64,000 bases of DNA from a virus. Its lineage: Duplodnaviria > Caudoviricetes. Positions 13,150 to 63,999 of this stretch are shown in pieces. The translations under genes and the position numbers were made by a program. The DNA lies in the IMG/VR virus record IMGVR_UViG_3300020465_001196; one strand, 5' to 3'. The notes beneath the pieces were generated by a model that searched no databases, was not told the origin of the DNA, and was given only the letters and a program-made list of their open reading frames with translations. The number at the start of each line of letters is the position of its first letter. Within the stretch, counting starts at the first letter, position 1.

Positions 13150-14283
13150 ATGAAAATTGATCCGTATGAATTAAAGTCAGTTATGGTTGGTGTTACTGCA
13201 AGATGTAATGCTATGTGTCCAGGGTGTCCTAGAAATATCAATGGAGCATTGGTTAATCATGATATGATTGGTACTTCTGAACATTGGGATATGCCTCTTG
13301 GTTTGTTTGAAAAATTCTTTACTTCAGAACTTGTAAATTCATTAGACTGGATAGAAATGTGTGGTAGCTTTGGTGACCCGTGTATGCATCCTAAATTTTT
13401 AGAAATAATGCAATACTTAAAAAATACCCACAAAGGAAATAAAAAATTTTACGTAACAATATCAACAAATGGCTCAATGCAAACTGAAAATTTTTGGAAA
13501 ACTCTTGGTGAAATGCATTGTGATAAATTTGGTGTAGAAATTTTATTTTGTTTAGATGGTGACAATCAAGATAGTCATGTTAAGTACAGGCGTTTAACAA
13601 ACTTTGATACTATATTAGAAAATGCTAAAACATTTATAAATGCAGGTGGTTTAGCAGTTTGGCAGGCAATTGAATTTGACCATAATGAACATGAAATAGA
13701 AAATGCTCGTACAATGTCAAAAGAACTTGGATTTCATCGCTTCACAATACAATCAGGACAAGGTCGATTAACTGGATATTTAGAACATGAGTTAAAAGGT
13801 AAGCCTCATGATTACGGTTCAAAAACTAAAAAACAAAATGAAGAAAATATATCATATGATACTAAACCAAGTTATCAAAAAATGAAAAAAGAAATTGAAA
13901 AATACACTGATAAAAAAGTTGACAATATGCAATGGCAAGAAGTAAAACAAGTACTAACACATATTCCTGTTGAATGCCAATGGGAAAAAGAAAGTTCTAT
14001 ATTATTTGAATTTGATGGAAGTATTTGGAGATGCTGTTATCATGGAACATTAAAAAATAAAAATCAATGGAAGAAAAATGTTATAGGAAGATATGGAGAA
14101 AATTGGAACAATATTCAAAATCACAATTTAAAAGATATTTTAGAACATGAATTTTTCACAACTTATTTAGACGAATCTTTTACAAACCCAGATGGCCCTT
14201 TTAAAAGGTTAACCTCTTGTACAGAAGCTTGTGGAGTTCATTTGAACTTCTTGCAGAAACATCTACCTAAAAAACATAACTAA
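13150..14283 (+). CDS. Radical SAM protein with C-terminal Cys-containing (SPASM/twitch-like) region
   Basis: CNAMCPGC (CxxxCxxC), GSFGDP, STNG, SLDG-like CLDG, and C-terminal C...WRCC...C..C. Confidence 0.88.
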   Translation: MKIDPYELKSVMVGVTARCNAMCPGCPRNINGALVNHDMIGTSEHWDMPLGLFEKFFTSELVNSLDWIEMCGSFGDPCMHPKFLEIMQYLKNTHKGNKKFYVTISTNGSMQTENFWKTLGEMHCDKFGVEILFCLDGDNQDSHVKYRRLTNFDTILENAKTFINAGGLAVWQAIEFDHNEHEIENARTMSKELGFHRFTIQSGQGRLTGYLEHELKGKPHDYGSKTKKQNEENISYDTKPSYQKMKKEIEKYTDKKVDNMQWQEVKQVLTHIPVECQWEKESSILFEFDGSIWRCCYHGTLKNKNQWKKNVIGRYGENWNNIQNHNLKDILEHEFFTTYLDESFTNPDGPFKRLTSCTEACGVHLNFLQKHLPKKHN

Positions 14284-21563: not shown

Positions 21564-21764
21564 TTATTGTACTGGCTGTGCGTACATTGTGGCTACAAAT
21601 TCTTTGTTTTTTTCAATGTCAGCTTTACGCATTTCACGTACTTTACGCAATTTGTTTAAATGCTGTAAAGTTAATTTAGTTTTACGACTATCAGTAATTT
21701 CTGCTTGATGAAACTGATCATCTTCTGGAAAATAGGTTTCTTTAATAATTTCTTTGTAACGCAT
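21564..21764 (-). CDS. Small conserved head-region protein
   Basis: 66 aa, RKTKLTL.HLNKLRK.RE motif; own TAAATA core 5 nt upstream. Confidence 0.7.
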   Translation of the reverse strand: MRYKEIIKETYFPEDDQFHQAEITDSRKTKLTLQHLNKLRKVREMRKADIEKNKEFVATMYAQPVQ

Positions 21765-21766
21765 AA

Positions 21767-21877
21767 TAATATTTACCTTCTCTTACTACAGTCATCACAT
21801 CTGCAATTTTCACAGTTGCAATTTTCACATTTACATTTACAATTTTTGCAAGCCATATTAATATTTACCTTCTCTTA
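21767..21877. repeat. 19 bp direct repeat TAATATTTACCTTCTCTTA at 21767-21785 and 21859-21877 flanking the Cys-rich gene
   Basis: Exact match read directly from the sequence. Confidence 0.9.
21773..21856 (-). CDS. Metallothionein-like peptide (MACKNCKCKCENCNCENCRCDDCSKRR, 27 aa, 9 Cys)
   Basis: Hand translation, absent from the ORF track; CxC/CxxC pattern, no aromatic or His residues; TAAATA core 5 nt upstream and AAGG SD-like element; fills the intergenic gap. Confidence 0.7.
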   Translation of the reverse strand: MACKNCKCKCENCNCENCRCDDCSKRR

Positions 21878-22251
21878 AGACTTTTTCTTGCTCTACCACG
21901 TAATTTCTTTAATGACGTATTCATTTTTTTAGTACGTATAGAAGCTGGACTATACTTTTTAGTATATGACGATTTAGCACCTTGTATACTACCTTTAGCT
22001 CTACGTGTACCTTTCATTCTGTTACTTTGCTGTACATTTAATGGTGCATTACACGTTTCTGGTTTAGCAACAATACGTCCTTTACGTGGGCCTGATGGAC
22101 AACGAAACTTTCTAGTTAGTTTTCCTTTTTTAGATCCTGATCCAAATTTACCTGGTGATCTTCCAAATATCTGAAATGCTCCAGTTGGCTTTGCTTCACT
22201 AACTGATTCAAAACAATATAGTTCTGTATTGCTAATTTCGTAAATCTTCAT
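21865..22251 (-). CDS. Very basic small protein, possibly internal head / DNA-binding
   Basis: Lys/Arg-rich; RKFRC.SGPRKGRIVA.P..C.AP motif; between portal and core genes. Confidence 0.65.
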   Translation of the reverse strand: MKIYEISNTELYCFESVSEAKPTGAFQIFGRSPGKFGSGSKKGKLTRKFRCPSGPRKGRIVAKPETCNAPLNVQQSNRMKGTRRAKGSIQGAKSSYTKKYSPASIRTKKMNTSLKKLRGRARKSLKRR

Positions 22252-22299
22252 AATAGTATACCTTCATTATTATTTATAATAATAATGTGTGTGTTAATA

Positions 22300-24021
22300 T
22301 TATGCTTGATCTGTTGGATTTGGTTCACCGCCACCTATTGGTGGAGTTTCTCCAGTTGCCTCTGGTGCATCTACGTCTGCATCTGCGGCTGGTTCTGTCA
22401 TTGGCATTGGTGCCGCACCCACATCACTTAAACCACCTAAGCCACCACCCATATCATCACCTTGTGCTGTTGGTCCTGCCGTTTGAGCATTTTCTTCTGC
22501 CCATAGTTTTTCGTTTTGATAAATTTCTGATTCATCAAGACCAAGATAACGTTTCATTGCAAAACGTTTAGACATAAATGGAATACCTTGTAATTGTGTA
22601 AAGATACTTGTTTGTTGATTATCAATTTCAATCTGTCTGTATTTGCCAAAGTTTTGTGGCTCATTAAATTGTAACTCAAACGATCCTGAATCAATTTCAA
22701 TACCTCTATGTTTTAAGAACATTTTAAATTCTCTATCAATAGTTGGTTGTATCATTGATTGTAAACGTTTGATATATTTTGTAAATCTAAATTCTTGTAT
22801 ATATGCTGTACCTACTCTACCATCAGTAAATGCTGAACCTGGATCTTCTGGTGTTGATGGCAAATAACTTGATGGAATTCTTAAACCTTTCATCAATTTA
22901 TTATTAAAGTATTTTAAATCATCAATTTCACCTAAGTTTTGACCACCTGGTAATGTTTCAACTTTTGATCCTCTACCTTCAGCCGTTTGTGCAAAGAAAT
23001 AATCTTCAATCATTGATAATGGATTATAAGCGGCATCCATTACATTTGCACCGCCACCTGTTTTATTTGGAATACGTTTTTGGTGTATTTCGTTTTTAAC
23101 TCTTTCAATAAATGCCATTGCTTTATTTGTTGGCATATTACCTACGTCAATATAAAATACTCTACGTTCAGGTGCTCTTTGTACTCTGTAAATAATAATT
23201 GCGTCTTCTAATAATTCTTTTTGTTTGTATACTTTAAATATACTTTCTAATACTGATGTACCAAAAGGCCAAAATCTATCCATGCCTTCTGATAATGAAA
23301 TGTGTGCAATATGCGAAGCATCAACTGGTGTTGTTTTTACTTCTTGTGTAAACCTACCACCTGTTGCTGTACTAATTGCTGTTGTTACTCCTTGGTATTT
23401 TGCATCTGTGGCAAAAGGCATACTACCACCTTGGAAAGCAATTGGTGCCGACATTTTATATTGACTCATTGTTGTTAAGTTTAAATTTTGTAAATTTAAA
23501 TCTAAATCTCTAATAAAGTATGCTTCTGGTTTTTTACCTTTACCTTCGTTAACAATAATTTTATCAATTTTACTTTGATCAACCCAAAGTAACTTATATG
23601 TTTCTGGATCTCTTACAAATACTTGATCTCCATACTTAATAGTATTTCTAAATAATTTAAAACATCTTTTGTCCCAATCATTTACATTTGACCATTGTTT
23701 AATTGCTTGGTTTAAAATTTCTGTTTCTGTATCTGTTGGTTTATCTTTATAAAATATTTTAAATGGAGCACCTGTTTTTGGATCTACTTGAGTAGCAAAT
23801 TCTGAAATAGTATCTAATGAAGCATTAATTTCAGTATCTAAATCCATTTGATCATATTGATAATAACGTTCAATACGATTTGGCTGTCCTGCATATACTT
23901 CTGGTAACCATGTGCTATATTTTGAATTCGTAGAACTTCCGCCTGGTGTTCCAGCATTACCAATTACTGACTGTTGCCCTAATTTTGTGCTATATTCTGT
24001 AAAGTGTTTTTTCCAACTCAT
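22300..24021 (-). CDS. gp20: Portal protein
   Basis: LLEDAIIIYRVQRAPERRVFYIDVGNMP..KA, EDYFF.Q..EGRGSKVETLPGG.NLGEI.D..YF..KL...L..P.S. Confidence 0.97.
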   Translation of the reverse strand: MSWKKHFTEYSTKLGQQSVIGNAGTPGGSSTNSKYSTWLPEVYAGQPNRIERYYQYDQMDLDTEINASLDTISEFATQVDPKTGAPFKIFYKDKPTDTETEILNQAIKQWSNVNDWDKRCFKLFRNTIKYGDQVFVRDPETYKLLWVDQSKIDKIIVNEGKGKKPEAYFIRDLDLNLQNLNLTTMSQYKMSAPIAFQGGSMPFATDAKYQGVTTAISTATGGRFTQEVKTTPVDASHIAHISLSEGMDRFWPFGTSVLESIFKVYKQKELLEDAIIIYRVQRAPERRVFYIDVGNMPTNKAMAFIERVKNEIHQKRIPNKTGGGANVMDAAYNPLSMIEDYFFAQTAEGRGSKVETLPGGQNLGEIDDLKYFNNKLMKGLRIPSSYLPSTPEDPGSAFTDGRVGTAYIQEFRFTKYIKRLQSMIQPTIDREFKMFLKHRGIEIDSGSFELQFNEPQNFGKYRQIEIDNQQTSIFTQLQGIPFMSKRFAMKRYLGLDESEIYQNEKLWAEENAQTAGPTAQGDDMGGGLGGLSDVGAAPMPMTEPAADADVDAPEATGETPPIGGGEPNPTDQA

Positions 24022-52296: not shown

Positions 52297-55200
52297 TTAT
52301 TCATTTCGCAAGTATTTTGCTATGTCTCCAGTTGAATTTGTAGTATCAAGCACACTATATCCCGTATTGTTCCAGAATCCGTTGTTTCTAGCTCCTGGTA
52401 TATTTGTATCTCCACTGTATACCTCAGTGCTATTTGCATGAGTTAAAATTGTTGTGCCGTGCGTTCCTCGTACAATATCTAATAAATCATTACCTTGAAT
52501 TCTATGGTATTCAATTCTTTCATTGCCAACATATATTACTCCTGGCTGTCCTGAATATGTTCCAGCAGTAGTTACACCAACGTCTTTTGGTTGAGGTAAT
52601 AAACTAGCATTGGCTACACTAATTTTATTTGAGTATGGAGTAACTGCCGCGGTTAATGTTGTATGGTCTGTTGTTGAGTTTCCTCCACCACTGTCAACAA
52701 ATTTTTGTCTTAGATATTTTACAGTTCCGTATGGTTTGTAATGAATTTGGTATTGTGATAAATCACCTGTTCCTGTATAGTTTGGTGCACTACCAGAAAC
52801 ACCTTCGTATGTTTTAACAGTTATGAATAAACTTTCTTTTGGTTTTAATGGTACAAGTTCTTCTGGATTTGGATCTTTGTCTGGTCTTACAAATCCTGCT
52901 GAATCTAATTTAGATTTTACTAGCACCCATTTACCTGCATCATAATCAGTTTCAAATGTTGCTGACGCTGTGTGCGTTTCGTTTGTGTAATAAATTAATT
53001 CATCAACTAAATCCCAACGTGATTCTTGTAGTGTTGTTTCACTTGCTAAATTTTTATGTGTTACGTTTGCAACATAAACTTTGTTGTTGTGTTTTACAAT
53101 ATCACCAACTGTATAACTTGTTGATGCTGACCATGCCGTAAAGTGAGTTAAGTCTGAATATTTTACAAATGAATCTTTTGCAAAAGATGTACCTGTTTTC
53201 CATTGTAAGTTTTCATTTACAAATTTTGAATCATACCAAACTTGAGTTGCTTCATCATCATAACCAATTTCAGTATTTGTATCTAATGCTGTAGCATCCC
53301 ATCTCAAACTATCCCAAGCAAAAGTAGTTAAGTCTTTTCCAATTCTATCTCTGTTTACAACAAAGCCAATTGGTTGAACATCTAAATCTTTAAATGACGT
53401 AATTGCATTTTCTAAATTAGTTGTAAACGTACTTACTTGAGTTACGTTTGCAGTATCTACATTCGCTAACTCATTTTTAAAATAATATTTTGCTAATCGA
53501 TCAACGTGTGTTGATTCAGGTGTTGACGTTTTCACTTTGTCAATCAATGCCGCATCAGTTGGTGCAGTAGTTGGACTAAAGTTGTAAGATATTAATTTAC
53601 CTGCTTGTACATCTGTAACAAAAACTCCTGAAGTATGATTAGCAGTAACTTGCCAGTAACCACCTCTATATTTTAAAGGTGTACCTGCTGTATATGATGT
53701 TGCCGTTGCCCATGTATTAATACTGTTTGTTGAAGGTGACAACAATGTTATCTTAGAACTAACTCTATCAAATAATAATTTAGTTGTAACTTTTGGTGTA
53801 GGATTAGTTGTACCGCTACCACTATTGTTTATTGTGTAATCAGCAGTTGATGTAAAGTCACTCATTGCTAAATTCATATTTTCTCTTGCTGGTGCTTTTT
53901 TACTTAAGAAGTCTCTAATTTTTGCTTTGTAAGGTTTAACTTCTTCAATGTAAGTTTTAATATCATCAAATGGATCTTTTTCATAAGATGCTTTTTGTTT
54001 TAATGTTGTATCTTGTTGAATAACATTTATGTATGTTGTTTTAAATAACCAATCAGTATTACTTTGTTCACTTGAAATATATCTTATTAATGCAAACAAT
54101 ACATCATTTTGTTTACCAAGTTTATCACTTATGAATACATTTAATCTTAATGCTGATATATACTGTCTTAATTCATTTGCTAGTGCTGTAGAATTATCTT
54201 CTGTATATACTGTTGTTTTTAATTTAGTTGTTGCAGTTTGTAAACCAATTCTTACTAATGATAAATTGTCTGAATCAATTGACGTTGTTGTCCCTGCCAA
54301 ATAATCAGCATCAGTATATTTGTATAATGCCCATTTAGATGCGTAATCATAATTTACTTTAATTACATCGCCTTCGTTAAGGTTAGCAGTAACAATGTCT
54401 GCTTTGTAATCAACAATTTCATCAATTATAGTATTATCATTAAATGTGCTATTGTAATACCAATTTGCTTTTTCATGGTACACAGATGTTGTAACTGTAC
54501 TATCCCAATTTGAATGTTCAACGTCTAAACTAATATTAGCAGTAATGTTATTCAATGCTTGGAATAAAACTTTTCTTGCATTTTTAATATTAACAAACCA
54601 AGTTTGTCTTGGTCTTACTTTAGAACCATATCTATCATTTAAAGATATTGATGTATCAGGAACAGTATTTCCAACAATATCATATCCACAAATACTGTCA
54701 GTCATTTTATTCCAAATTTGATTTGGAATTTGTGTATCTGAATATCCTTCTCTAATTAACAACCATTGTGCGTGTGGTTTATCTGTTTTATCTTTTGTTT
54801 TTCTATTTCTATAATTAATTTGTAAAACACTATTGTCTTTAGTTAAGTTATTAACAACATTTGCAATCATAAATGAATTAGGTGATATTGGTGCAAAATA
54901 ACTTAACCCTTGTGTTAATGGTGAAGTCATTAAGTTTGAAACTGTTTGTGTATCACTTGTTCTAGAATCCATTTGAGGTACAGTTGTTTTGTTTTTAACC
55001 CAATAATAATAAGTTGTAATATTTGCATTTGTATATGGATCAGTAGTAATTTCACTTACATAATTTGTTGTTGACTTAACTGTTCCTGTTCCTAAATACG
55101 AATCTGGAAGTTGTGATGATTTAACCCATTCATAAATGTCAATTGTAGATCCTTCAAATAATCTACCCCAATGTTTTCTTCTATAATTATTGTCATGACT

Positions 55201-58200
55201 TTCATAATCAATATATCTTGTTGTTGATTGATCCCACCAAACTTGACCAACGTATTCATCAGTCCATGGATTATTAACACTAATTTGTGTTGTATCAGAA
55301 TGATTATTATATATTGCAGGATCTATTTCAGTTTTATATGTTATTTCACGATCAGCAGTTGCAGGTAATATACCTTTTATAGGATCGTAAATATTCATAC
55401 CAACATCAATTTGATGATCCCTGTCATCATACAATGATGTTTTCTTAAATTGTTTTGTATCAATTTTGTCTTTTTGTCTACGTTTTGTTTTTTCAAAATA
55501 TGCTGTTGTTGTTTGAGTTGAATCACTATAGTTTACTCCACTATGCAAAATCCATGTACCACCTGCCGCACTTACACTTGCAGGCTCACTACCACGTATT
55601 GTATTATATGAAGATATTATTGATGCGTTAGTAGTATATCTGTATACTCCCCATTTACCAGTAAAGTCATCATCTAACCAAATTAGTGCACCTTCTGTCC
55701 AAGCACTATTTGATAATCCTGTACCTGTTAAGAAGTTTGTAATTGTAGTTGAAGTACTTGTTGATACGTATGCTTTGTCAGTTGCAATACCATTGTTTAA
55801 TCTTACATCTTTCCAATCAAGTAATTTTATAACATCAAGACCAGTCTGATTATTAGTTGTAATAAATTCTGGAGTGCCGTCTGCTTGTGTAATTGAATAT
55901 TCTTTTTTAGTATAACTTAACGATAAAGACATATCCCCAGTTGTTGCTGATGATACTGAAATGTTTGCTCTAACTGTTGCATTTGAATTGTCTGTAATAT
56001 TCTGTGATGGAGTAACTGTTTTAACTCCTGCTGTATTTAAACCTGTTAATGTATATAATGTAGTTGCTGTTGATCCATCCCATTTTTCAACAACACCTGT
56101 AACTGTACCATCAAATGCTGTTGTTACATTTGCAGTAAGATTATTTAAAACGTGTATCTTACTTAAATTTGGAGATAAGTTTATAATATAATTTGCTTTA
56201 GTATCTACTACTGAAATTTTACCAGTTGCTGTACTAATAATCCCTGCACTAAATCCTTTGTTCCATAAACCTGTTGGAACTGTAATTGCAGTTATAACTC
56301 CACTAGATACAGTAATGTTTCCTGGTGATGTTAATGTTCCAACTGTTGTCCCAGCATTGTTTATAATTTTAATACTTGGAGATTGATAATTTGTACCACC
56401 ATTAATAATTGTTAAATCTTTAATTTCACCTAAACGTCCACTTGCACCATCTCCAGTAAATGTAAATGTTGCAGGTGTGTAATGCGTTCCAGAAGTTTTT
56501 GTTGTACCATCAAAAGAAACAACTGAATATCCATCTGGGGCATCTGCGTAATTATCTCCGCCACTGTTTAATGTTAATTCACTTCCACCAGTATTACCAG
56601 TTAATGCTCCAGTAAATGAAACTGTTGGAGCAGTATAACCGCTACCAGCATTAGTAATAGTAATTGCATCAACTTCTCCACTTCCATTAATTGTACAAGT
56701 TGCTGTTGCACCTTGTCCTGTTGTATCTGTAATTTTTACTTGTGGTGCTGATTGGTATCCTGTACCTGCCGCACTAATTGTTATAGCAGTAATCAATCCA
56801 TCTTTTTCTTGTCCTAATGTTGCGAATGCTGTAGCACCAGTTCCATCTCCTGTGATAGTAACAGTTGGTTGATATGTGTACCCTGCACCAGCGGCCGTTA
56901 AAGTAATACCAGTTACTTTACCTCCTGCTATTGTTGCCGTTGCTGTTGCACCTACACCGCCGCCACCGGATATATTAACAGTTGCTGAACTGTAACCTGA
57001 CCCTTGCTCTAGTACTTGTATTGATGTAATTGGAAACGTATCATTAACTGTTGCAGTTGCTTGAGCACCACTACCACCATTAATTTTATCAACAGTCATT
57101 GCCGCACCTGTGCCACCGCTACCTGTAAATGTAATTGTGTCGCCTTCTGCAAATCCGGCTCCACCACCTGAAACTGTTACTACTGTAATTGTACCATTAA
57201 TATTACCAACGGCAATGTCTGCACCTGTACCAGCAATATTTGAAAACGAAACTGTAGCAGTTGGTTCTGTTGGTGTTGTTGTTTCAAGTTTTATTTTATG
57301 TGTTCCCCAAGTTTGAGGATTATAAACAAGGTCACCATTTCCATTATAAGTTTTTTCTAATACTAAATCTTTTTCTTGTCCAATATCTGCACCAGTGCCT
57401 GTTACAGTAACAGTCATTGCCGTGTTAGCATCACCACTGGTTGAAACACGATCAATTCTAGTACTTGTATCATATAACTTATAAACATTCCAATCTTTAC
57501 CAGATAATACGTCTTTGGCTACCCATGCCGTACTACCTATTGAAACATTTTCAGATGCATTTGTATAAACGTTTGCCAATGCATTTGAATCTAATGCTTT
57601 GTACGTTGCATCATCAAAATGTACATAACCAGCTGTTGGTACTATTGACGTAACTGAAGATAATACTGGCCATAAGTTTGCCAAAGATTTTTCACCTTTT
57701 GGTTTTTTCAACCAACGTGTTGTATCATCAATATCAATAGTAATTACGTCATCAGTTTTTGAATCATAACCTGAAGTTGTTGTTCCATCTGATGGTAATA
57801 AAAATTCAAATGTTTGTGGATCACTAACAACATCATTTGCTTTTACTTGTAATTCTATTTGTTGATTAAATGCTGTTGAACCAAAGTCTCCAACTTTAAA
57901 TGCCCATTCTTCATATGTGTCAAACGTTTGATCAGTGCTTACAGTTGTTGAACGTAATAATCTGTCAATAGCATTTGTTGTACCTTTTTGTTTTATCATA
58001 CCTTGATAAAACTTAACTTGATTAGTTTTGCTAATTTTTAAGTTTGTTAAATAATCTCTTTCTTGATATCCAATTAAATGCATTGCCGCATCTCTAAAGT
58101 TAGTGCTAACTAAAGAAGCATCAACGTCATAATATAATCTACTATCTGTTACTGATTTTTCAAAGTTATTAATTAAACTTGTACCGCTAATAATATAACC

Positions 58201-61200
58201 ATCTGATTCAAGTTTACCATTCCAACCTAGTGTTTTAATTGTGCTTAATTTAATACGTGGTTGTCTTTGTGCTAAAACAGTATTGTAAATTGTATCATTA
58301 AAGATTGTTTTATTGTTTAATGTTATTGCGTGTTCTGTTTCTTTAATAGATAACCTTAATCCATATACACCAATATTTTGTTTGTGTGTAATTGTTACAA
58401 TATCATCATCACGTAAAACTTCTAATTGCTGTGCATCTAATCCAAAACCTTCTTTGTTTAGTACACTATATACACCATTATTAATATCAGTTATACCTTG
58501 TACGACACCTGTTAATGGTGCAAATCTTAATCTATCGGCACTTGGACTTAAAGTTATAAAAGTTCCTTTATCCCATTTACCTAAACTCCAGAATAAAAAT
58601 TCTTTTGCACTATAATCATAATCTTTGTTTTCACCTGCATCAGTATTAAAGTCATCAAATATCCAACCAAGGCTTTTTAAGTATTCACCATAGCCACGAA
58701 TAACATCATATACTTCTTGTCTTGTTTTATAAACTGTGCCATAACCACATTTTTTAATTTGGTTTTCATTATAATCAAAATAATGTTCAACTTCAGTGCC
58801 ACCAACTGTTGGAAGAACTTTTAGTAATTTCCATTTATTCATATCTGGTGACCTATCAGTTGTTAGTGAAACATGAGTAGTTGTTGCTTGATAATATTTT
58901 GTATCATGCTGTACAATCTCATCTCTATGATAAGTTGTTCCTGGATTATATCCAACTGGAGATATTGATTTACCACCAACACGTACTTTTTTAGATCTTC
59001 CAGATATTAAAGGTACTAATGTATTAAAGTATGGATGAACAATATCATAACCAAATAATTTATATCCACCTTCAACTGCTTGTACAACTACTCCACTATA
59101 TGATGCTTCTTGAACACTTCCACCAGTATGTAAAGTTATATTAATATCTTCGTTTGGAACTGTAATACTTGTTGCATTACTTGTTGAATCATATGCTTCT
59201 GATTCAACTTGTAGTGTAGATGCATCTATAAATCCTGCACAACGATAAGTTAAGTTTGTTTGTAAATTTCTAATTACGTTACCAAAAGATTCTGTAATAG
59301 GTTTGCCTTTGTAATTTAAATATTCAACTAAAAAGTTTTGTACACCTGCTTTATAATGAGTTATATTGCTACTATCAGTTTCAGTATGTACATAATAGTC
59401 TTTGTTATTTGATCTTTTACCTGTGCTTGAATCTATAATTTGATTGTTATCAGCATTTGATCTAGTTAATTTGTTTGAATCCCAAAGTAAGTCAACGTAT
59501 GAACCAGGTGTAGTTAAGTATAATATTTTTTGAATTGCATATTGATACGATGATGAAGTATAAAATGCATTTTCTACCGGAGCACCATCTCCAAATTCCC
59601 AATCAAGTTGTGATTCGTATTCAGTTGGGTTACTTGAAATAATACCTGCTTGTAAAGGACTTAATAAGTTTCCTGTTGTACTTACAGGTACGTATGATGC
59701 AAAACCTGGTTTTTTATAAACGTTGTCTGCATTTAAATATGAATTATCAGTGTAATTATTTCTTGAACCATCTCTAATAATACCTTGCTCAATATCATTT
59801 ATTAATTGTGTTCTTGTTGCTGTTGTTGTCCAAGAATAATAATTATCCCACCATAATGGTTTTTGAGAGAAGCCCAACATTTCCCATGGATGAGTATGTG
59901 GTCTATCTGTTCCATAATACCAACGATAAATTCCTCTCCAATGTCCTGGTAATTGATCACCATTTGCATCTTTAATTGTTGAATAATTTAATACTTTCCA
60001 ATCAACAACTACTCCGCTACTTGTATCTATTACTCCTGTTGCACCACTTGTTTCACCAGTAACTGTTTCTGAAAGTTGAAAAGAATCAACTACGTTATTA
60101 ATTGTTATTGTGTTAGTTCCAACTTTAGTAATAATACCTTCTGCACCAGATGAGCCGCCATTTACTTTTTCACCAACTTTAAATGTTCCTGACGAACTTG
60201 AAAAATTAATTACGTTTGTATAACCAGTATTTTCTTGATAGTTTACTGCATTCTCAGAAGCCCATCTTGTAAATATTGGTCTAAGTAAATTATTAAACTC
60301 TTCTCTTGTCCAACTAGTTGAATTAAAGAAGTTTGGTTGTATTTTGTTAATGTCTAACAATACAGAATAATCTCTGTTTGTAAATCTTTTATTAATTGAG
60401 TTATATATTCTTTTTTCTAATTCTAATAATGCTGTATCACGTAAGTCATTATATTTTAATACTAATGCACCATCATGACATTGTATAAAGTTTCTTGTAC
60501 CAGTTGAATACGTAATCGCATCTGATACTTCTTCTGGTCTATATACTCTTGCCGCTCCAAGTTTTGCTGGAGTAGGTGGAACCCACGTTGGTTGAATTGT
60601 TTTATAATGTCTAATAGTAATTACATCATTTACTTTTGGTTTATTATTTGCATAACCTATGAAGATAATTTTATTTCCATTAGATGAATTATTAACAATA
60701 TACTCATGATTGTATAACATTAAAACATTATTTTTGTAAACGTAAAATGCTTGGCTATCATAATCATTATCAGGATTGTATGCTGACGTAATTGCTAATC
60801 CTGGTTCTGTATTAAATATCTCTTGTGTTTCACTTCCTTGTAAAAATGTGTTTGTATTTCCCCAAGTATAATTTGTTGACGTAATAGTATGCGTTTCTGT
60901 TGTATACCTATCACCACTTGCTAACATAAACGAATTTGCAAAAGGTGTTGTAGGAAGTTTATCTATATTAATATTTTTAAGTGCTTTGTCAACTATTTGT
61001 GCTGTAGTTAATAAAGATGCATCTTGTGTTACTTGTATTTTGTTTACAGAATTTAAAAATTTTAATTGAAACTCTTGATATCTATTTTTAACATAACGTA
61101 TTGATGAAATCATATCTAAGTCATCGTTGTTAGTAAATGACATTGCTTTAAGTAATGATCCGTCGTGTTGTAATATTACTGATCCTTTACCTAAATTTTT

Positions 61201-63999
61201 AGCAGTATCTCTGTAATTGTTTGCTCCACCAATGTCTCCAGTAAACCCTGTTTGGTTTTGAACTATTGATTCAAAGTGTTGGAAAAATTCTGAATATGAA
61301 CCTGATGCAACTTCTTCGTTTGCTGAATTTGATTCTAAATTTTTTGGTATTTCATAATAGTTAATTGCTTTAATAGGAGTATTGTTATTTGTATCATAAT
61401 AAACTTTTACAAAATCATTTTCTACTAATGCAGTTGTAAACACAATTTCAACACTTCTATTAGTTGTATAGTCTGTACCAAATACTTGCTTAACACCATT
61501 TTTATATACTTCCATATTTGAAACTGATGTTGGAATTACTTCAAGTGTTGGTTTATCAGTTAAATTTGCTTTTGAAACTGTATGCTCTTGTACTAAACGT
61601 TGTCTTAATTTTTGACTTGAATTCCATTCGTTTTTGTAAAACGTTTCAGTTGCATCTGTAAGTTTTGTAATTGGGTTATCAATAATTACTAATTTAATTG
61701 CAGAATTATGTGTTGCACAATTGTAATATAATGTGTTTGGTGCACCAGATGGAACTGTAAAAGTTAATGTAGTATTTGCTCCACCGTAATATGATCTTGA
61801 TCCAGTAACTCCAGTTAAGTACTCATTCTCATAACCGTTTTGCGACCAAGTTGTACCTGTTGAAAGATAAAATGGATGATTTGATCCAGTATAACCAGTT
61901 GAGCTTGTTTCTGGAGAACTTAACTTAAAGTTATATGTGTTGCCTCTTTGTAAAATTAATATTGGTTGTTCTTCACCATTTATAAAGTAAACATTTTTTG
62001 TTGAATCTTTTTTACTTGGATTAATGTTAACTTCATAATCAACTGTTTTAGCAATTGTTTCAGGATACAAATACTCTTTGAAATATTTGTATCCTGTTAT
62101 TGCAGTTGAGGTATTATATGTGTATGAGTCAAGGTTGAGGTAATTACAAAACTCAATATCACTTTGGCCACTACCAGTAACATAAGATAGTGGAAATCCT
62201 AATTCTGTATCATTAGTACCTGTACCAACTTTATAACCAAATATTTTTGATCCAGCAAAGTCAGATGATGCATATACTCCTGCATCACTTAATAAAACTT
62301 TATTGTTGTCATATAAATTAAATAATGGTGCAATGTTTGATTGTGTTTTTTGTTGTGCTTGATTCCAATTGTAACCATCATAGTACCATTCAGTACCACC
62401 ATATGTTGTACCTTGAGAAATATATACTTTGTCATCTTTATCAACACTTGAAACTACTTGAGTTAATTTTATTTGTGATCCTACTCCAGATACTTGCCAA
62501 ATAGAACCTTCAATAGTAAATGATGTGCTTGATACGTCCCAACCTACATCACCACCTGTGTTACCACCGCCACCAGTTGTAGCATCAGAGTCAGTATCAT
62601 GATCCCATAAACCACTATCCCATTGTACATAGTCATCTTGTGATGCCGCATTTGGAAATAGTATTGTATCTCTGTTTTGAATTTGTCTACCGTCAATTGC
62701 TATATTTGATTGCGTTTCAATTTGTGTTTTTGATAATGTTCCTTCTATAACAGTAACATCGAGAATATGTTTTTTACCATAATCATATAATTCAATATCT
62801 CTATTAAATTCTAAAATTGGTCTTGTAGCACGTCTACCAGTTGTTTTTGTAAATGCAGTTGTTGATGTTACAGTAACACTATCCCATGCTTGACTAATTT
62901 CATCCCAATCACCTGTGTCCCATAAATGGTTTTCAGTTGACGAAGTTGTTAAACTTGGATAGTTTTCTAAAGTATTTTTATGTACCCAACCATTTGTTTT
63001 TGACCAAATGTTTCCATCTCTAGCACCACGTTCAATTGTAATATAATCTTTTGTCGATGCTGTTTGTTCTTTTAAGTTTCTTAAATTTCTTTTATCAATT
63101 AATTTAATTTCTCTACCAACACCTTCAACTATATAAGTGTTTATAGTTTGTGTGTTTGTTGCAGTAATTGTTGCACTATTACCACTTGTAGAAGATACTG
63201 TTACTGCTGTTGGTGTAACACCATCGCCTAATGCTGTTGTAGTTAAATCTATACCTGTAATTGTACCACTGCCATTTACACTTATTACTTTACCAACTAC
63301 TACAGTTGAAATAATAATTGTATCATTAACAGCATATCCGGTACCACCACCAGTTAAGTTTAATCCTGTAATGGTGTGATAAAATTTGTATGCGTTGTTT
63401 GTAACTGATTGTCCAAATTGTACTTGTAATCCATTTGTAAATATAGTACCATCAGGTGCGGTATATGTTTTCTTACCAATAATATCTGTTGCTGGATCAA
63501 TTTGGTTACCACCAGACCCGTCAACAATTGTTGCAGGTAAATTTGAAAACACTCCATTTGTTTCTGTTGATAAATCATCATTTGATGGATACCAATAATA
63601 GTTTGCATAGTTTAAAAACTTATCTATATCAATTGGTGGTGCAAATGAATAATAACTTTCTTCAAATAACTTTGCATGGTTATTAATAACTCCACCATCA
63701 AATCTTAATTTGTTTACTAGGTCTTCGTATGTAGTTTGGTAAGATATCCTTTGAGTATCATTATCTCTTACAACAACTGATGGTTCTAATTGATAATTAT
63801 ATCTATCTACAGATGGCTCACCTAAATAAGCATCTTTCTTGGTTTGATAAATTCTACCTTCACGTCTTCCAACGAATCCATTTGTAAATTCATTTTCTTC
63901 GTTTTTGAACCATTGGTCAACTGTAGAATCAAAAAAGTTTGTTAACTTTGTTGACTGTAGAACAAACGGTAATTGTTTTGAAGCTACAAATTGCTCAGC
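52297..63999 (-). CDS. Giant baseplate wedge protein (gp7-like), at least 3,900 aa, 5' end beyond the window
   Basis: The track starts at an internal GTG (63552); hand translation shows the frame stays open to 63999 (AEQFVASKQLPFVLQSTKLTNFFDSTVDQWF...YSFAPPIDIDKFLNYANYYW). Contains HPWEMLG, EEWA...G.FG, GGSGY-type repeats and CBM-like modules. Confidence 0.8.
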   Translation of the reverse strand, partial: AEQFVASKQLPFVLQSTKLTNFFDSTVDQWFKNEENEFTNGFVGRREGRIYQTKKDAYLGEPSVDRYNYQLEPSVVVRDNDTQRISYQTTYEDLVNKLRFDGGVINNHAKLFEESYYSFAPPIDIDKFLNYANYYWYPSNDDLSTETNGVFSNLPATIVDGSGGNQIDPATDIIGKKTYTAPDGTIFTNGLQVQFGQSVTNNAYKFYHTITGLNLTGGGTGYAVNDTIIISTVVVGKVISVNGSGTITGIDLTTTALGDGVTPTAVTVSSTSGNSATITATNTQTINTYIVEGVGREIKLIDKRNLRNLKEQTASTKDYITIERGARDGNIWSKTNGWVHKNTLENYPSLTTSSTENHLWDTGDWDEISQAWDSVTVTSTTAFTKTTGRRATRPILEFNRDIELYDYGKKHILDVTVIEGTLSKTQIETQSNIAIDGRQIQNRDTILFPNAASQDDYVQWDSGLWDHDTDSDATTGGGGNTGGDVGWDVSSTSFTIEGSIWQVSGVGSQIKLTQVVSSVDKDDKVYISQGTTYGGTEWYYDGYNWNQAQQKTQSNIAPLFNLYDNNKVLLSDAGVYASSDFAGSKIFGYKVGTGTNDTELGFPLSYVTGSGQSDIEFCNYLNLDSYTYNTSTAITGYKYFKEYLYPETIAKTVDYEVNINPSKKDSTKNVYFINGEEQPILILQRGNTYNFKLSSPETSSTGYTGSNHPFYLSTGTTWSQNGYENEYLTGVTGSRSYYGGANTTLTFTVPSGAPNTLYYNCATHNSAIKLVIIDNPITKLTDATETFYKNEWNSSQKLRQRLVQEHTVSKANLTDKPTLEVIPTSVSNMEVYKNGVKQVFGTDYTTNRSVEIVFTTALVENDFVKVYYDTNNNTPIKAINYYEIPKNLESNSANEEVASGSYSEFFQHFESIVQNQTGFTGDIGGANNYRDTAKNLGKGSVILQHDGSLLKAMSFTNNDDLDMISSIRYVKNRYQEFQLKFLNSVNKIQVTQDASLLTTAQIVDKALKNINIDKLPTTPFANSFMLASGDRYTTETHTITSTNYTWGNTNTFLQGSETQEIFNTEPGLAITSAYNPDNDYDSQAFYVYKNNVLMLYNHEYIVNNSSNGNKIIFIGYANNKPKVNDVITIRHYKTIQPTWVPPTPAKLGAARVYRPEEVSDAITYSTGTRNFIQCHDGALVLKYNDLRDTALLELEKRIYNSINKRFTNRDYSVLLDINKIQPNFFNSTSWTREEFNNLLRPIFTRWASENAVNYQENTGYTNVINFSSSSGTFKVGEKVNGGSSGAEGIITKVGTNTITINNVVDSFQLSETVTGETSGATGVIDTSSGVVVDWKVLNYSTIKDANGDQLPGHWRGIYRWYYGTDRPHTHPWEMLGFSQKPLWWDNYYSWTTTATRTQLINDIEQGIIRDGSRNNYTDNSYLNADNVYKKPGFASYVPVSTTGNLLSPLQAGIISSNPTEYESQLDWEFGDGAPVENAFYTSSSYQYAIQKILYLTTPGSYVDLLWDSNKLTRSNADNNQIIDSSTGKRSNNKDYYVHTETDSSNITHYKAGVQNFLVEYLNYKGKPITESFGNVIRNLQTNLTYRCAGFIDASTLQVESEAYDSTSNATSITVPNEDINITLHTGGSVQEASYSGVVVQAVEGGYKLFGYDIVHPYFNTLVPLISGRSKKVRVGGKSISPVGYNPGTTYHRDEIVQHDTKYYQATTTHVSLTTDRSPDMNKWKLLKVLPTVGGTEVEHYFDYNENQIKKCGYGTVYKTRQEVYDVIRGYGEYLKSLGWIFDDFNTDAGENKDYDYSAKEFLFWSLGKWDKGTFITLSPSADRLRFAPLTGVVQGITDINNGVYSVLNKEGFGLDAQQLEVLRDDDIVTITHKQNIGVYGLRLSIKETEHAITLNNKTIFNDTIYNTVLAQRQPRIKLSTIKTLGWNGKLESDGYIISGTSLINNFEKSVTDSRLYYDVDASLVSTNFRDAAMHLIGYQERDYLTNLKISKTNQVKFYQGMIKQKGTTNAIDRLLRSTTVSTDQTFDTYEEWAFKVGDFGSTAFNQQIELQVKANDVVSDPQTFEFLLPSDGTTTSGYDSKTDDVITIDIDDTTRWLKKPKGEKSLANLWPVLSSVTSIVPTAGYVHFDDATYKALDSNALANVYTNASENVSIGSTAWVAKDVLSGKDWNVYKLYDTSTRIDRVSTSGDANTAMTVTVTGTGADIGQEKDLVLEKTYNGNGDLVYNPQTWGTHKIKLETTTPTEPTATVSFSNIAGTGADIAVGNINGTITVVTVSGGGAGFAEGDTITFTGSGGTGAAMTVDKINGGSGAQATATVNDTFPITSIQVLEQGSGYSSATVNISGGGGVGATATATIAGGKVTGITLTAAGAGYTYQPTVTITGDGTGATAFATLGQEKDGLITAITISAAGTGYQSAPQVKITDTTGQGATATCTINGSGEVDAITITNAGSGYTAPTVSFTGALTGNTGGSELTLNSGGDNYADAPDGYSVVSFDGTTKTSGTHYTPATFTFTGDGASGRLGEIKDLTIINGGTNYQSPSIKIINNAGTTVGTLTSPGNITVSSGVITAITVPTGLWNKGFSAGIISTATGKISVVDTKANYIINLSPNLSKIHVLNNLTANVTTAFDGTVTGVVEKWDGSTATTLYTLTGLNTAGVKTVTPSQNITDNSNATVRANISVSSATTGDMSLSLSYTKKEYSITQADGTPEFITTNNQTGLDVIKLLDWKDVRLNNGIATDKAYVSTSTSTTITNFLTGTGLSNSAWTEGALIWLDDDFTGKWGVYRYTTNASIISSYNTIRGSEPASVSAAGGTWILHSGVNYSDSTQTTTAYFEKTKRRQKDKIDTKQFKKTSLYDDRDHQIDVGMNIYDPIKGILPATADREITYKTEIDPAIYNNHSDTTQISVNNPWTDEYVGQVWWDQSTTRYIDYESHDNNYRRKHWGRLFEGSTIDIYEWVKSSQLPDSYLGTGTVKSTTNYVSEITTDPYTNANITTYYYWVKNKTTVPQMDSRTSDTQTVSNLMTSPLTQGLSYFAPISPNSFMIANVVNNLTKDNSVLQINYRNRKTKDKTDKPHAQWLLIREGYSDTQIPNQIWNKMTDSICGYDIVGNTVPDTSISLNDRYGSKVRPRQTWFVNIKNARKVLFQALNNITANISLDVEHSNWDSTVTTSVYHEKANWYYNSTFNDNTIIDEIVDYKADIVTANLNEGDVIKVNYDYASKWALYKYTDADYLAGTTTSIDSDNLSLVRIGLQTATTKLKTTVYTEDNSTALANELRQYISALRLNVFISDKLGKQNDVLFALIRYISSEQSNTDWLFKTTYINVIQQDTTLKQKASYEKDPFDDIKTYIEEVKPYKAKIRDFLSKKAPARENMNLAMSDFTSTADYTINNSGSGTTNPTPKVTTKLLFDRVSSKITLLSPSTNSINTWATATSYTAGTPLKYRGGYWQVTANHTSGVFVTDVQAGKLISYNFSPTTAPTDAALIDKVKTSTPESTHVDRLAKYYFKNELANVDTANVTQVSTFTTNLENAITSFKDLDVQPIGFVVNRDRIGKDLTTFAWDSLRWDATALDTNTEIGYDDEATQVWYDSKFVNENLQWKTGTSFAKDSFVKYSDLTHFTAWSASTSYTVGDIVKHNNKVYVANVTHKNLASETTLQESRWDLVDELIYYTNETHTASATFETDYDAGKWVLVKSKLDSAGFVRPDKDPNPEELVPLKPKESLFITVKTYEGVSGSAPNYTGTGDLSQYQIHYKPYGTVKYLRQKFVDSGGGNSTTDHTTLTAAVTPYSNKISVANASLLPQPKDVGVTTAGTYSGQPGVIYVGNERIEYHRIQGNDLLDIVRGTHGTTILTHANSTEVYSGDTNIPGARNNGFWNNTGYSVLDTTNSTGDIAKYLRNE

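What the first reader, a model, noticed from the sequence alone, without database searches (positions are those of the whole stretch)
21773..21856. Unannotated phage metallothionein-like peptide in the head-assembly operon
The minus strand encodes MACKNCKCKCENCNCENCRCDDCSKRR: 9 Cys in 27 aa in CxxC/CxC clusters, no aromatics, a tandem C(E)NC.C unit. Nine Cys equals the ligand count of the mammalian metallothionein beta domain, which binds 3 Zn/Cd or about 6 Cu(I). It has a late-promoter core 5 nt upstream and sits between portal and prohead genes. I am not aware of characterised phage metallothioneins. It could buffer Cu/Zn during assembly, supply Zn to Zn-finger morphogenesis proteins (gp26, HNH, Rad50 hook), counter host copper or oxidative stress, or be packaged in the head.
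Basis: partly seen in the sequence, partly recalled or inferred. Interest (0 to 1): 0.82.

Follow-up and report, generated by a model that had tools for sequence, protein, structure and literature searches.

The report
Mobile nine-cysteine micro-gene in marine jumbo phages
A 27-residue peptide with nine cysteines, too short for gene callers, is a real, conserved and horizontally mobile micro-gene of marine T4-like jumbo phages; it most likely forms a metallothionein-like metal-sulfur cluster, but metal binding is untested.

Summary
The ORF is at 21773-21856 (-), as described. It lies in a 92-bp insert bracketed by a 24-nt direct repeat (one mismatch). The repeat duplicates the upstream gene's stop, the GAAGG ribosome site, the spacer and the ATG of the gp67-like gene, so the peptide gets a working translation start.

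Close relatives lack the insert precisely. L232 is at least 99.5% identical to carrier L208 in the flanks. Other contigs keep the insert.

The same 9-Cys core (62/69 nt) also sits in an unrelated auxiliary-gene region of more distant jumbo phages, with a different tail. Six alleles show about 11 core substitutions. None removes a Cys, and three are synonymous TGT/TGC changes (P about 0.01). In that second slot an unalignable 35-aa, 12-Cys ORF can replace it. The same Cys spacing is an optional module in one other viral protein family.

There is no match to any Pfam, PHROG or PDB entry, metallothioneins included. RNA libraries contain the locus.

Verdict:
- Real accessory micro-gene: about 0.85.
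- Metallothionein-like metal binding: plausible, about 0.5, untested.
- A head-assembly-specific role is weakened.
- The cited promoter hexamer is non-specific; a true TATAAATA lies upstream of the 128-aa gene.

The scan noted this same stretch and its repeat before, on this genome only.

The parts
21773..21856 (-). 27-aa micro-ORF MACKNCKCKCENCNCENCRCDDCSKRR with stop codon
   Evidence: the same ORF at the same junction in L201/L219/L229 and L208/L212
21788..21850 (-). 9-Cys array core (codons 3-23), spacing CxxCxCxCxxCxCxxCxCxxC; this is the part shared between the two genomic contexts
   Evidence: gap-free alignment with nine invariant Cys columns
21797..21826 (-). internal 15-nt tandem duplication (ENCNC / ENCRC), 13/15 identical; suggests the array grew by short tandem duplication
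   Evidence: sequence read directly
21854..21877 (-). direct repeat copy 1: end of the 128-aa gene (KRR, TAA), spacer and the micro-ORF's ATG; contains GAAGG (21868-21872), which serves as the ribosome-binding site
21762..21785 (-). direct repeat copy 2 (23/24 identical to copy 1): supplies the micro-ORF's KRR tail and stop, and the spacer and ATG of the gp67-like gene
   Evidence: empty sites in L001, L211, L232 and others hold a single copy
21865..22251 (-). 128-aa very basic (pI 11.3) accessory ORF, first cistron of the unit; found only in the window's subclade
   Evidence: no Pfam or PHROG match
22271..22278 (-). perfect T4-type late promoter box TATAAATA, 20-27 nt upstream of the 128-aa gene's ATG and followed by GAAGG; probable promoter for the 128-aa gene, the micro-ORF and the gp67-like gene
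21564..21764 (-). 66-aa gp67-like gene (phrog_13986), widely conserved just downstream of the portal gene in relatives; its translation start region is what the cassette duplicates
22300..24021 (-). portal protein gene (gp20-like)
   Evidence: phrog_213, E 1e-111

Best explanation
The feature is a genuine, translated, accessory micro-gene. Its product is a 27-aa peptide whose 21-residue core is a fixed array of nine cysteines. The gene travels as a mini-cassette of roughly 70-90 bp: a generic gene-junction and translation-start sequence (stop TAA, ATATTAAT spacer, ATG, with GAAGG upstream) followed by the Cys core. In the window it was inserted at the boundary between the 128-aa gene and the gp67-like gene, and the insertion duplicated 24 nt of that boundary. 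The micro-ORF therefore starts on a copy of the gp67-like gene's initiation region and ends on a copy of the 128-aa gene's last codons. It is read as the second cistron of a late transcript from the TATAAATA box at 22271-22278. The direct repeat also allows precise loss, which explains the empty sites in near-identical genomes. The peptide most likely folds around a metal-thiolate cluster as metallothioneins do: nine thiolates could hold about three Zn/Cd or several Cu(I) ions. It would then act in the infected cell as a metal or thiol buffer, not as a virion part. Shown here: the ORF, the repeat architecture, presence/absence polymorphism, a second genomic context, Cys conservation with synonymous changes, and replacement by another Cys-dense ORF in the same slot. 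Inferred: translation, metal binding, which metal, and the physiological role.
For: Architecture and empty sites. L232 has flanks at least 99.5% identical to carrier L208 but lacks the 92 bp precisely. Carriers come from independent samples: the window, L201/L219, L229 and L208/L212. Six DNA runs from three studies hold the stretch, and one contig in run X1 spans the whole stretch with no differences, so it is not an artefact. A second context (L248-L250, L252-L254, L258, L335) encodes MACKNCKCECENCNCDYCRCDDCGETRD between unrelated genes. Its core is 62/69 nt identical, while those genomes share only about 35-63% protein identity with the window's relative G001, which points to horizontal transfer. 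Selection: about 11 core substitutions, 5 synonymous (3 of them TGT/TGC in Cys codons), 6 nonsynonymous, none removing a Cys. P(0 of 11 remove a Cys) is 0.007-0.016 and P(3 of 3 Cys-codon hits synonymous) is 0.001-0.014. Within context B there are 3 synonymous and 0 nonsynonymous differences. Sampling through the neighbour genes, which cannot be biased by Cys content, found no Cys-loss allele. The same slot with the same boundaries holds an unalignable 35-aa, 12-Cys ORF in L255/L256. The identical Cys spacing is conserved as an optional module, once duplicated, in one viral protein family. That family accounts for all but one spurious hit among 1.84 billion representative proteins. Expression signals: the same GAAGG-spacer-ATG as the conserved gp67-like gene, and a late box upstream. 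RNA-library contigs bridge the 128-aa gene end and the micro-ORF start (X16) and the context-B ORF and its downstream gene (X15); RNA runs from three studies hold part of the stretch. The insert has no RNA structure and matches no Rfam family. Charge is not conserved (pI 8.4 against 4.5) while the Cys array is.
Against: There is no direct evidence of translation, and RNA-library contigs can come from contaminating DNA. Only six alleles and about 11 substitutions exist, so overall dN/dS is only marginal (P 0.008-0.11). The insert's low divergence relative to its flanks (4/81 against 11-14%) could reflect recent transfer instead of constraint. There is no similarity to any metallothionein family or solved structure, and the atlas link to an insect metallothionein family is weak (0.75-0.77). 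The gene is dispensable: most close relatives and the complete genome G001 lack it. Metal binding, stoichiometry and metal identity are entirely untested.
Confidence: 0.55

Rival explanations
1. The peptide is real, but it is a small metal- or disulfide-stabilised knot that binds and modulates a specific host or phage protein, as many tiny phage takeover proteins do. It is not a metal buffer.
For: It is an accessory, strain-variable, horizontally moved small gene, as anti-host factors often are. The Cys positions are fixed while the residues between them vary. The third Cys-rich type in relatives (L259, L263, L274) contains His, Gly and an ND..CTGC motif, which looks more like a folded zinc mini-domain.
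Against: Nine Cys in 21 residues leave almost no surface for specific recognition. Charge flips from basic to acidic between contexts. The slot can be filled by an unalignable Cys-dense peptide, which fits a bulk chemical property better than a specific interface.
Confidence: 0.15
2. The peptide is a substrate of one of the phage's radical-SAM enzymes, that is, a RiPP-like product with thioether cross-links between Cys and Asp/Asn/Glu as in ranthipeptides or SCIFF peptides.
For: The window encodes a radical-SAM protein with a CNAMCPGC motif and a Cys-rich C-terminal part (13150-14283, +). Its weak best resemblance is to SPASM-type maturases. Relative G001 has at least six paralogues. The peptide alternates Cys with Asp, Asn, Glu and Lys.
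Against: There is no leader peptide: the first Cys is residue 3. The enzyme lies 8 kb away on the other strand. No Cys-rich micro-ORF sits next to any of the four paralogue loci examined in G001 or next to the window's enzyme. G001 has the enzymes but no such peptide. The 31- and 38-kb context-B contigs have the peptide but no radical-SAM gene. All NCBIfam scores are far below cutoff.
Confidence: 0.1
3. The insert is a neutral or selfish by-product: a junction duplication plus short tandem-repeat growth that happens to be open and translated, spreads by recombination between similar gene junctions, and has no function for the phage.
For: The direct-repeat architecture, the internal 6-nt and 15-nt tandem repeats, the patchy distribution and easy precise loss. 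The sample of substitutions is small.
Against: Cys codons change only synonymously (P about 0.01). Context B shows 3 synonymous and 0 nonsynonymous differences. The core has been retained in two unrelated loci of distantly related phages. All six near relatives in context B keep a Cys-dense ORF in the slot, of two different types. The same spacing is conserved in an independent protein family.
Confidence: 0.15
4. The ORF is an assembly or sequencing artefact in low-complexity sequence.
For: The core is low-complexity, and short-read contigs break inside it.
Against: The identical stretch occurs in six runs from three studies, including a 2.2-kb contig that spans the whole stretch in one piece. 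Several independent metagenome assemblies carry allelic variants. The contig breaks are explained by the second-context copy sharing the core.
Confidence: 0.01

Closest known systems
Metallothioneins, especially the 9-Cys beta-domain type and the very short fungal Cu(I) metallothioneins of about 25 residues (from established knowledge of the superfamily, not tested here)
   Same: Very small size, about one third Cys, Cys arranged only as C-x-C and C-x-x-C, no His, no aromatics in the window's allele, built from short tandem units. Nine thiolates is the ligand count of a three-metal M3S9 cluster.
   Different: No detectable sequence relationship to any curated metallothionein family or solved structure. 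Phage-encoded, 27 aa and free-standing. Metal binding is unproven. The context-B allele has one Tyr.
Unnamed viral protein family represented by L202:4822-5121 and P0001-P0007, P0016-P0021 (100-184 aa, next to a ResIII/Helicase_C_2 helicase and a family-B DNA polymerase)
   Same: Exactly the same nine-Cys spacing, with the same kind of polar D/E/N/K spacer residues, aligned without gaps. The array is optional there too: present in some members, replaced by acidic linker in others.
   Different: There the array is an internal module of a longer protein in a different large-virus lineage. Here it is a stand-alone gene. The function of that family is unknown.
Mobile gene cassettes of T4-like phages: the cassettes described in marine cyanomyoviruses (PMC3037559), and the promoter-stem-loop regulatory cassettes of T4-type phages (recalled from memory, not read here)
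   Same: A small accessory unit bounded by repeated regulatory or junction sequence, found at different genome positions in related phages, and gained and lost between close relatives.
   Different: Far smaller: one 84-nt gene. It is bounded by a duplicated stop/RBS/ATG junction, not by promoter stem-loops. No stem-loop is present (fold z = 0.48) and no endonuclease is associated.
SCIFF and ranthipeptide precursors (Cys-rich RiPP precursors matured by radical-SAM/SPASM enzymes)
   Same: A short Cys-rich peptide in a genome that encodes radical-SAM enzymes with SPASM-like features.
   Different: No leader region, no adjacent maturase, and peptide and enzymes do not co-occur.

Membership tests
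Metallothionein (operational superfamily definition) | Low molecular mass (under about 10 kDa) | tested here: met
   27 aa, 3.16 kDa
Metallothionein (operational superfamily definition) | High Cys content (about 15-35%) arranged as C-x-C, C-x-x-C or C-C motifs | tested here: met
   33% Cys; spacing 2-1-1-2-1-2-1-2
Metallothionein (operational superfamily definition) | Few or no aromatic residues and His | tested here: met
   None in the three context-A alleles; one Tyr in the context-B alleles
Metallothionein (operational superfamily definition) | High metal content bound in metal-thiolate clusters with characteristic spectra | not testable with these tools
   Needs the peptide with Zn, Cd or Cu(I) titration, native MS and UV/CD
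Any curated metallothionein sequence family (Pfam Metallothio* models, including the prokaryotic family) or solved metallothionein structure | Significant match to the family profile or to a solved chain | tested here: not met
   No Pfam hit at E up to 10 and no PDB sequence hit at E up to 10. The atlas gives only a 0.75-0.77 neighbour for the longer related peptides. Composition filters may hide weak matches.
RiPP precursor of a radical-SAM/SPASM maturase (SCIFF / ranthipeptide type) | Leader or recognition region preceding the modified core | tested here: not met
   The first Cys is residue 3 and the whole peptide is 27 aa
RiPP precursor of a radical-SAM/SPASM maturase (SCIFF / ranthipeptide type) | Maturase gene adjacent to or co-occurring with the precursor | tested here: not met
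   The radical-SAM gene is 8 kb away on the other strand. There is none in the context-B contigs. G001 has at least six such genes but no peptide.
Classical zinc ribbon or zinc finger mini-protein | Four ligands in two pairs separated by a structured loop | tested here: not met
   Nine Cys lie within 21 residues and no gap exceeds 2 residues; no Pfam zinc-finger match
T4-type mobile regulatory cassette (promoter-stem-loop bounded) | Flanking repeated promoter plus stem-loop sequences | tested here: not met
   The flanking repeat is a stop/RBS/ATG junction. There is no significant fold (z = 0.48), and the only perfect late box is upstream of the 128-aa gene.
Nine-Cys array module shared with the L202 viral protein family | Nine Cys with spacing CxxCxCxCxxCxCxxCxCxxC and polar spacer residues | tested here: met
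   Gap-free alignment with nine invariant Cys columns. The profile recovers only that family, apart from one spurious repeat protein, among 1.84 billion representatives. Common descent as opposed to convergence is not resolved.

The most novel reading that the evidence does not exclude
Marine jumbo T4-like phages carry a previously unseen class of horizontally mobile micro-genes under 40 aa. At least three sequence types encode Cys-array peptides that act as virus-borne metallothionein-type metal or redox buffers, that is, auxiliary genes for Cu/Zn/Cd or oxidative-stress handling in infected ocean bacteria. They spread by a 'born-translated' mechanism in which the cassette duplicates the stop/RBS/ATG junction of tightly packed genes.
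Probability: 0.35. Interest if true: 0.8.

Novelty: new variant of a known kind. Interest (0 to 1): 0.62.

Why it matters
The gene is invisible to standard annotation. As I recall, Prodigal's minimum gene length is 90 nt, above this 84-nt ORF, and consistent with that the stand-alone peptides were absent from a sweep of 1.84 billion representative proteins. Even so, it shows the marks of a selected, mobile gene in widespread marine phages.

If the peptide binds metals, it would be the first phage metallothionein-type protein with comparative support. It would also add trace-metal or thiol buffering to the list of processes that ocean viruses manipulate.

The cassette's structure, a duplicated stop/RBS/ATG junction, gives a simple and general way for micro-genes to be inserted already translatable and later lost without scars. 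That is relevant to how small phage genes are born and exchanged.

At 3.2 kDa the peptide can be made by chemical synthesis, so the central claim can be tested cheaply.

Tried and rejected
1. A pure Cys-spacing DNA scan was swamped by (TGY)n trinucleotide repeats and was uninformative. Forcing non-T spacer codons fixed this, but the fix missed the context-B allele because Tyr17 is coded by TAT.
3. Pfam, PHROG and PDB sequence searches returned nothing for the micro-ORF. They returned only non-significant hits for the longer Cys-rich peptides and the L202 protein.
4. The structured-RNA or terminator reading was rejected: fold z = 0.48, and only one sub-threshold Rfam hit, which lies on the opposite strand outside the insert.
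5. The idea of a two-gene module (upstream basic gene plus peptide) was rejected because the two upstream genes are unrelated.
6. The idea that context B is part of the window's own genome is not supported. The context-B contigs share nothing with the 64-kb window except the ORF, and their shared genes are only 35-63% identical to G001, against 81% DNA identity between the window and G001. The equal contig depth in run X1 remains unexplained.
7. The genome-contig scans found no copy in prokaryote genomes; they returned only unrelated ORFs sharing the MACKNCKC start.
8. No whole genome is held for the window, so a second copy elsewhere in this genome could not be checked.
9. Literature searches found no characterised phage metallothionein.
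10. Structure prediction was not run. The peptide is below the 30-aa limit, and predictions without metals would not be informative.

Full report
**1. The observation**

The minus strand of 21773-21856 is an ATG-started ORF that encodes MACKNCKCKCENCNCENCRCDDCSKRR: 27 aa, 9 Cys, no aromatic residue and no His.

On the gene strand the order is:
- portal gene, 22300-24021 (phrog_213)
- a 128-aa very basic ORF, 21865-22251 (pI 11.3, no family match)
- the micro-ORF
- a 66-aa gp67-like gene, 21564-21764 (phrog_13986)
- an acidic 308-aa ORF
- the gp21-like protease
- a scaffold-like gene
- the major capsid gene

The window has 33% G+C. It belongs to a marine T4-like jumbo phage whose GenBank relatives are only distant (about 68% identity over parts). 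It shares about 81% DNA identity over roughly 60 kb with a complete 328-kb IMG/VR genome, G001/L001.

Chance does not produce such an ORF. Of the nine other Cys-dense short ORFs in the window, eight lie on the + strand, mostly opposite the annotated minus-strand genes, and the ninth is antisense to a + strand gene; all are hydrophobic. In the whole of G001 all 15 such ORFs are hydrophobic and antisense inside large genes, and none is polar or intergenic.

**2. Anatomy**

In G001 the homologue of the 128-aa gene ends AGG TAA ATATTAAT ATG and runs straight into the gp67-like gene. The window has 92 extra bases at that point. They are bracketed by a 24-nt direct repeat with one mismatch, at 21854-21877 and 21762-21785. 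Each copy holds the last codons of the 128-aa gene (K-R-R), the TAA stop, the spacer and an ATG.

Three things follow:
- The micro-ORF starts on a copy of the gp67-like gene's initiation region, with GAAGG 11 nt upstream of the ATG.
- It ends on a copy of the 128-aa gene's last codons.
- Its unique part is 69 nt, which is in frame.

The core itself contains a 6-nt repeat and a 15-nt tandem repeat (ENCNC/ENCRC).

A perfect TATAAATA lies 20-27 nt upstream of the 128-aa gene's ATG. The motif is under-represented in the window (7 found against 13.5 expected). Where it occurs it sits 21-31 nt before start codons, including that of the portal gene. The micro-ORF is therefore most simply the second cistron of a late transcript.

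The insert does not fold better than shuffled sequence (z = 0.48) and matches no Rfam family.

**3. Distribution at this junction**

I sampled relatives through the neighbouring 128-aa gene, so Cys content could not bias what was collected. In viral and metagenome contigs the results were:
- *Carriers:* the window, L201/L219, L229 and L208/L212.
- *Empty sites:* L001/L218/L234, L002, L211/L228, L213-L217, L230/L231, L232, L233, L235 and L236.

L232 differs from carrier L208 by 1 of 381 nt and 1 of 198 nt in the flanking genes, yet lacks the 92 bp precisely. So gain or loss is recent and scarless, as expected for recombination or slippage between the repeats.

The window and L208 differ at 11.5% and 13.6% of flank positions (pS 0.29 and 0.53) but at only 4 of 81 positions in the micro-ORF.

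Six DNA runs from three studies hold the stretch, and one contig in run X1 spans the whole stretch in one piece without a difference. This rules out an artefact.

**4. A second genomic context**

Laying contigs from public runs revealed a second version of the Cys stretch in different flanks. It appeared in a DNA run, a metatranscriptome run and an unrelated DNA run.

I recovered it from IMG/VR in L248/L258, L249/L252, L250/L254 and L253/L335. The peptide is MACKNCKCECENCNCDYCRCDDCGETRD, 28 aa with the same nine Cys positions.

It lies between an 85-aa basic ORF and a 303-aa phrog_727 gene, in a region that also holds a ClpB-like ATPase, an NT5C nucleotidase, a phrog_3704 'ferredoxin', a peroxiredoxin and a GMP reductase.

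These contigs share nothing else with the window. Their genes are only about 35-63% identical in protein to those of G001. Yet the 69-nt core is 62/69 identical.

Homology starts at the upstream AAGAGA...TAAATATTAAT junction and ends after the last Cys. The tails (SKRR against GETRD) and the neighbouring genes differ, and the two upstream genes are unrelated. The unit that moved is therefore the translation start plus the Cys array, and it moved horizontally between distantly related jumbo phages.

**5. Evidence for selection on the peptide**

Six distinct alleles give about 11 substitution events in the 23-codon core:
- five synonymous, of which three are TGT/TGC changes in Cys codons 3, 8 and 23
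- six nonsynonymous, all at spacer residues

By simulation over transition/transversion ratios of 1 to 5:
- P(no event out of 11 removes a Cys) = 0.007-0.016
- P(all three Cys-codon hits are synonymous) = 0.001-0.014
- P(at least 5 of 11 synonymous) = 0.008-0.11

Within context B, L248 and L249 differ by three synonymous and no nonsynonymous changes. L335 differs only in its stop codon, TAG for TAA.

The strongest single observation is in L255/L256. The context-B slot has the same upstream spacer and the same GAT TAA TTATG exit there, but it holds an unalignable 35-aa ORF with 12 Cys. What is maintained at that position is a Cys-dense micro-protein, not a particular sequence.

A third type (35-38 aa, 9-11 Cys, with its own AGGAGA site) follows the next gene in further relatives, L259, L263-L265 and L274.

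Net charge is not conserved (pI 8.4 against 4.5), which argues against a role that depends on basic charge.

**6. The array elsewhere**

The same spacing, CxxCxCxCxxCxCxxCxCxxC, with D/E/N/K spacers occurs inside a 100-aa ORF of an unrelated 144-kb viral contig, L202.

In that protein family the array is present in some members down to about 50% identity. It is duplicated in one member and replaced by acidic linker in others. A profile of the array searched against 1.84 billion representative proteins returned 11 hits. All were from this family except one spurious eukaryote-type repeat protein.

The family sits beside a helicase and a family-B DNA polymerase in a different large-virus lineage.

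So the array behaves as a discrete, portable unit. Whether the stand-alone genes and the embedded modules share ancestry or converged is not resolved.

**7. Expression**

One RNA-library contig lies without a difference across 21830-22027, covering the end of the 128-aa gene and the start of the micro-ORF. Another bridges the context-B ORF and its downstream gene. RNA runs from three studies hold part of the 161-nt stretch.

This is compatible with transcription but is not proof, because such libraries can contain DNA.

**8. What it most likely does**

Nine thiols within 21 residues, in C-x-C and C-x-x-C motifs only, without His or aromatics and built from short tandem units, meet the sequence-level definition of a metallothionein. 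Nine thiolates is the ligand count of a three-metal cluster (established knowledge of the superfamily).

I therefore commit to a metal-thiolate cluster peptide that acts as a metal or thiol buffer in the infected cell. The probabilities are about 0.85 that the gene is real and selected, and about 0.5-0.55 for the metallothionein-like mechanism.

It is not a sequence member of any known metallothionein family. The atlas similarity of the longer relatives to an insect metallothionein family is below evidential level.

A head-assembly-specific role is weakened by the second context, by the charge flip and by the gene's absence from close relatives.

**9. Rivals**

- *RiPP precursor.* This deserved a test, because the window encodes a radical-SAM protein (13150-14283, CNAMCPGC motif, weak SPASM-type resemblance) and G001 has at least six paralogues. 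But there is no leader and no adjacency, and peptide and enzymes do not co-occur.
- *Specific protein-binding mini-knot.* This remains possible.
- *Neutral junction-duplication by-product.* This remains possible but is disfavoured by section 5.

**10. Novelty**

Literature searches found only annotation-level mentions of metallothionein genes in viromes (PMC13317609, PMC12917443) and no characterised phage metallothionein. Mobile cassettes in T4-like marine phages are known (PMC3037559), but not of this size or with this architecture.

I class the finding as a new variant of a known kind.

Earlier notes of this scan describe the same stretch and its 19-bp repeat on this same genome. They add nothing independent.

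Noticed in passing
window 13150-14283 (+); G001 around 224.4, 250.9, 272.6, 277.3, 289.7 and 303.0 kb (loci L343-L346): A radical-SAM protein with a CNAMCPGC motif and a Cys-rich C-terminal part, whose weak best resemblance is to SPASM-type maturases. The complete relative genome carries at least six paralogues at 27-37% identity. A multi-copy radical-SAM family in a jumbo phage is unusual, and its substrates are unknown.
   Followed up: partly
L255 1391-1498 and L256 1391-1498: A 35-aa ORF with 12 Cys and 2 His (MEDNKKCICEDCSCEHHCEETCDCDCGTCTCECCD) occupies exactly the slot that holds the 28-aa 9-Cys ORF in L252-L254, with the same boundaries.
   Followed up: partly
L259 2139-2246; L263 and L264 2631-2741; L265 2625-2741; L274 2736-2843: A third family of 35-38-aa Cys/His-rich micro-proteins (pattern C.KCG...HC...C..C.ND.CTGC.C..CK) with a strong AGGAGA ribosome site, placed after a 129-133-aa phrog_727 gene (111 aa as called in L274). 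No Pfam, PHROG or significant PDB match.
   Followed up: partly
L202 4822-5124; proteins P0001-P0013 and P0016-P0021: A viral protein family (N-terminus MKYLKTFE..., C-terminal GLTAKQKKLPEAFQKAILKKQ repeats) in which the nine-Cys array is an optional insert, duplicated in P0019. It is encoded beside a ResIII/Helicase_C_2 helicase and a family-B DNA polymerase; one relative's helicase carries an intein.
   Followed up: partly
L334 from 10224 (+), identical in L337 from 92 (+); L332 6794-6817 (-) and L333 3925-3948 (-): Other small phage ORFs (54-57 aa) begin with the same eight residues, MACKNCKC, and then diverge. The L334 copy, on a 455-kb viral contig, has a perfect TATAAATA box about 31-38 nt upstream of its ATG. 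This could be chance or a shared N-terminal motif.
   Followed up: no
window 21865-22251 (-): The 128-aa, pI 11.3 ORF between the portal and gp67-like genes exists only in the window's subclade. In most relatives the gp67-like gene follows the portal gene within about 45-125 nt, although some carry other inserts there. It may be an internal head or DNA-associated protein. The module is mosaic: this gene is 97% identical to L211 but about 84% to L213, although L211 and L213 show the same divergence from the window in the downstream gene.
   Followed up: partly
L003, L004, L007, L009 and L010, immediately upstream of the gp67-like gene's ATG: In several relatives a (T)ATAAATA box lies only 5-9 nt before the gp67-like gene's ATG. 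That would leave almost no leader and hints at leaderless or very short-leader late mRNAs in this phage group.
   Followed up: no
run X1, laid on window 21795-21867: In the run that may be the window's source, the contig with the context-B version has the same depth (8.3) as the main contig (8.6). The context-B contigs otherwise look like a more distant phage. Whether the window's own genome carries a second copy is unresolved.
   Followed up: partly
window 52297-61515 (-): A single 3072-aa ORF, not examined.
   Followed up: no
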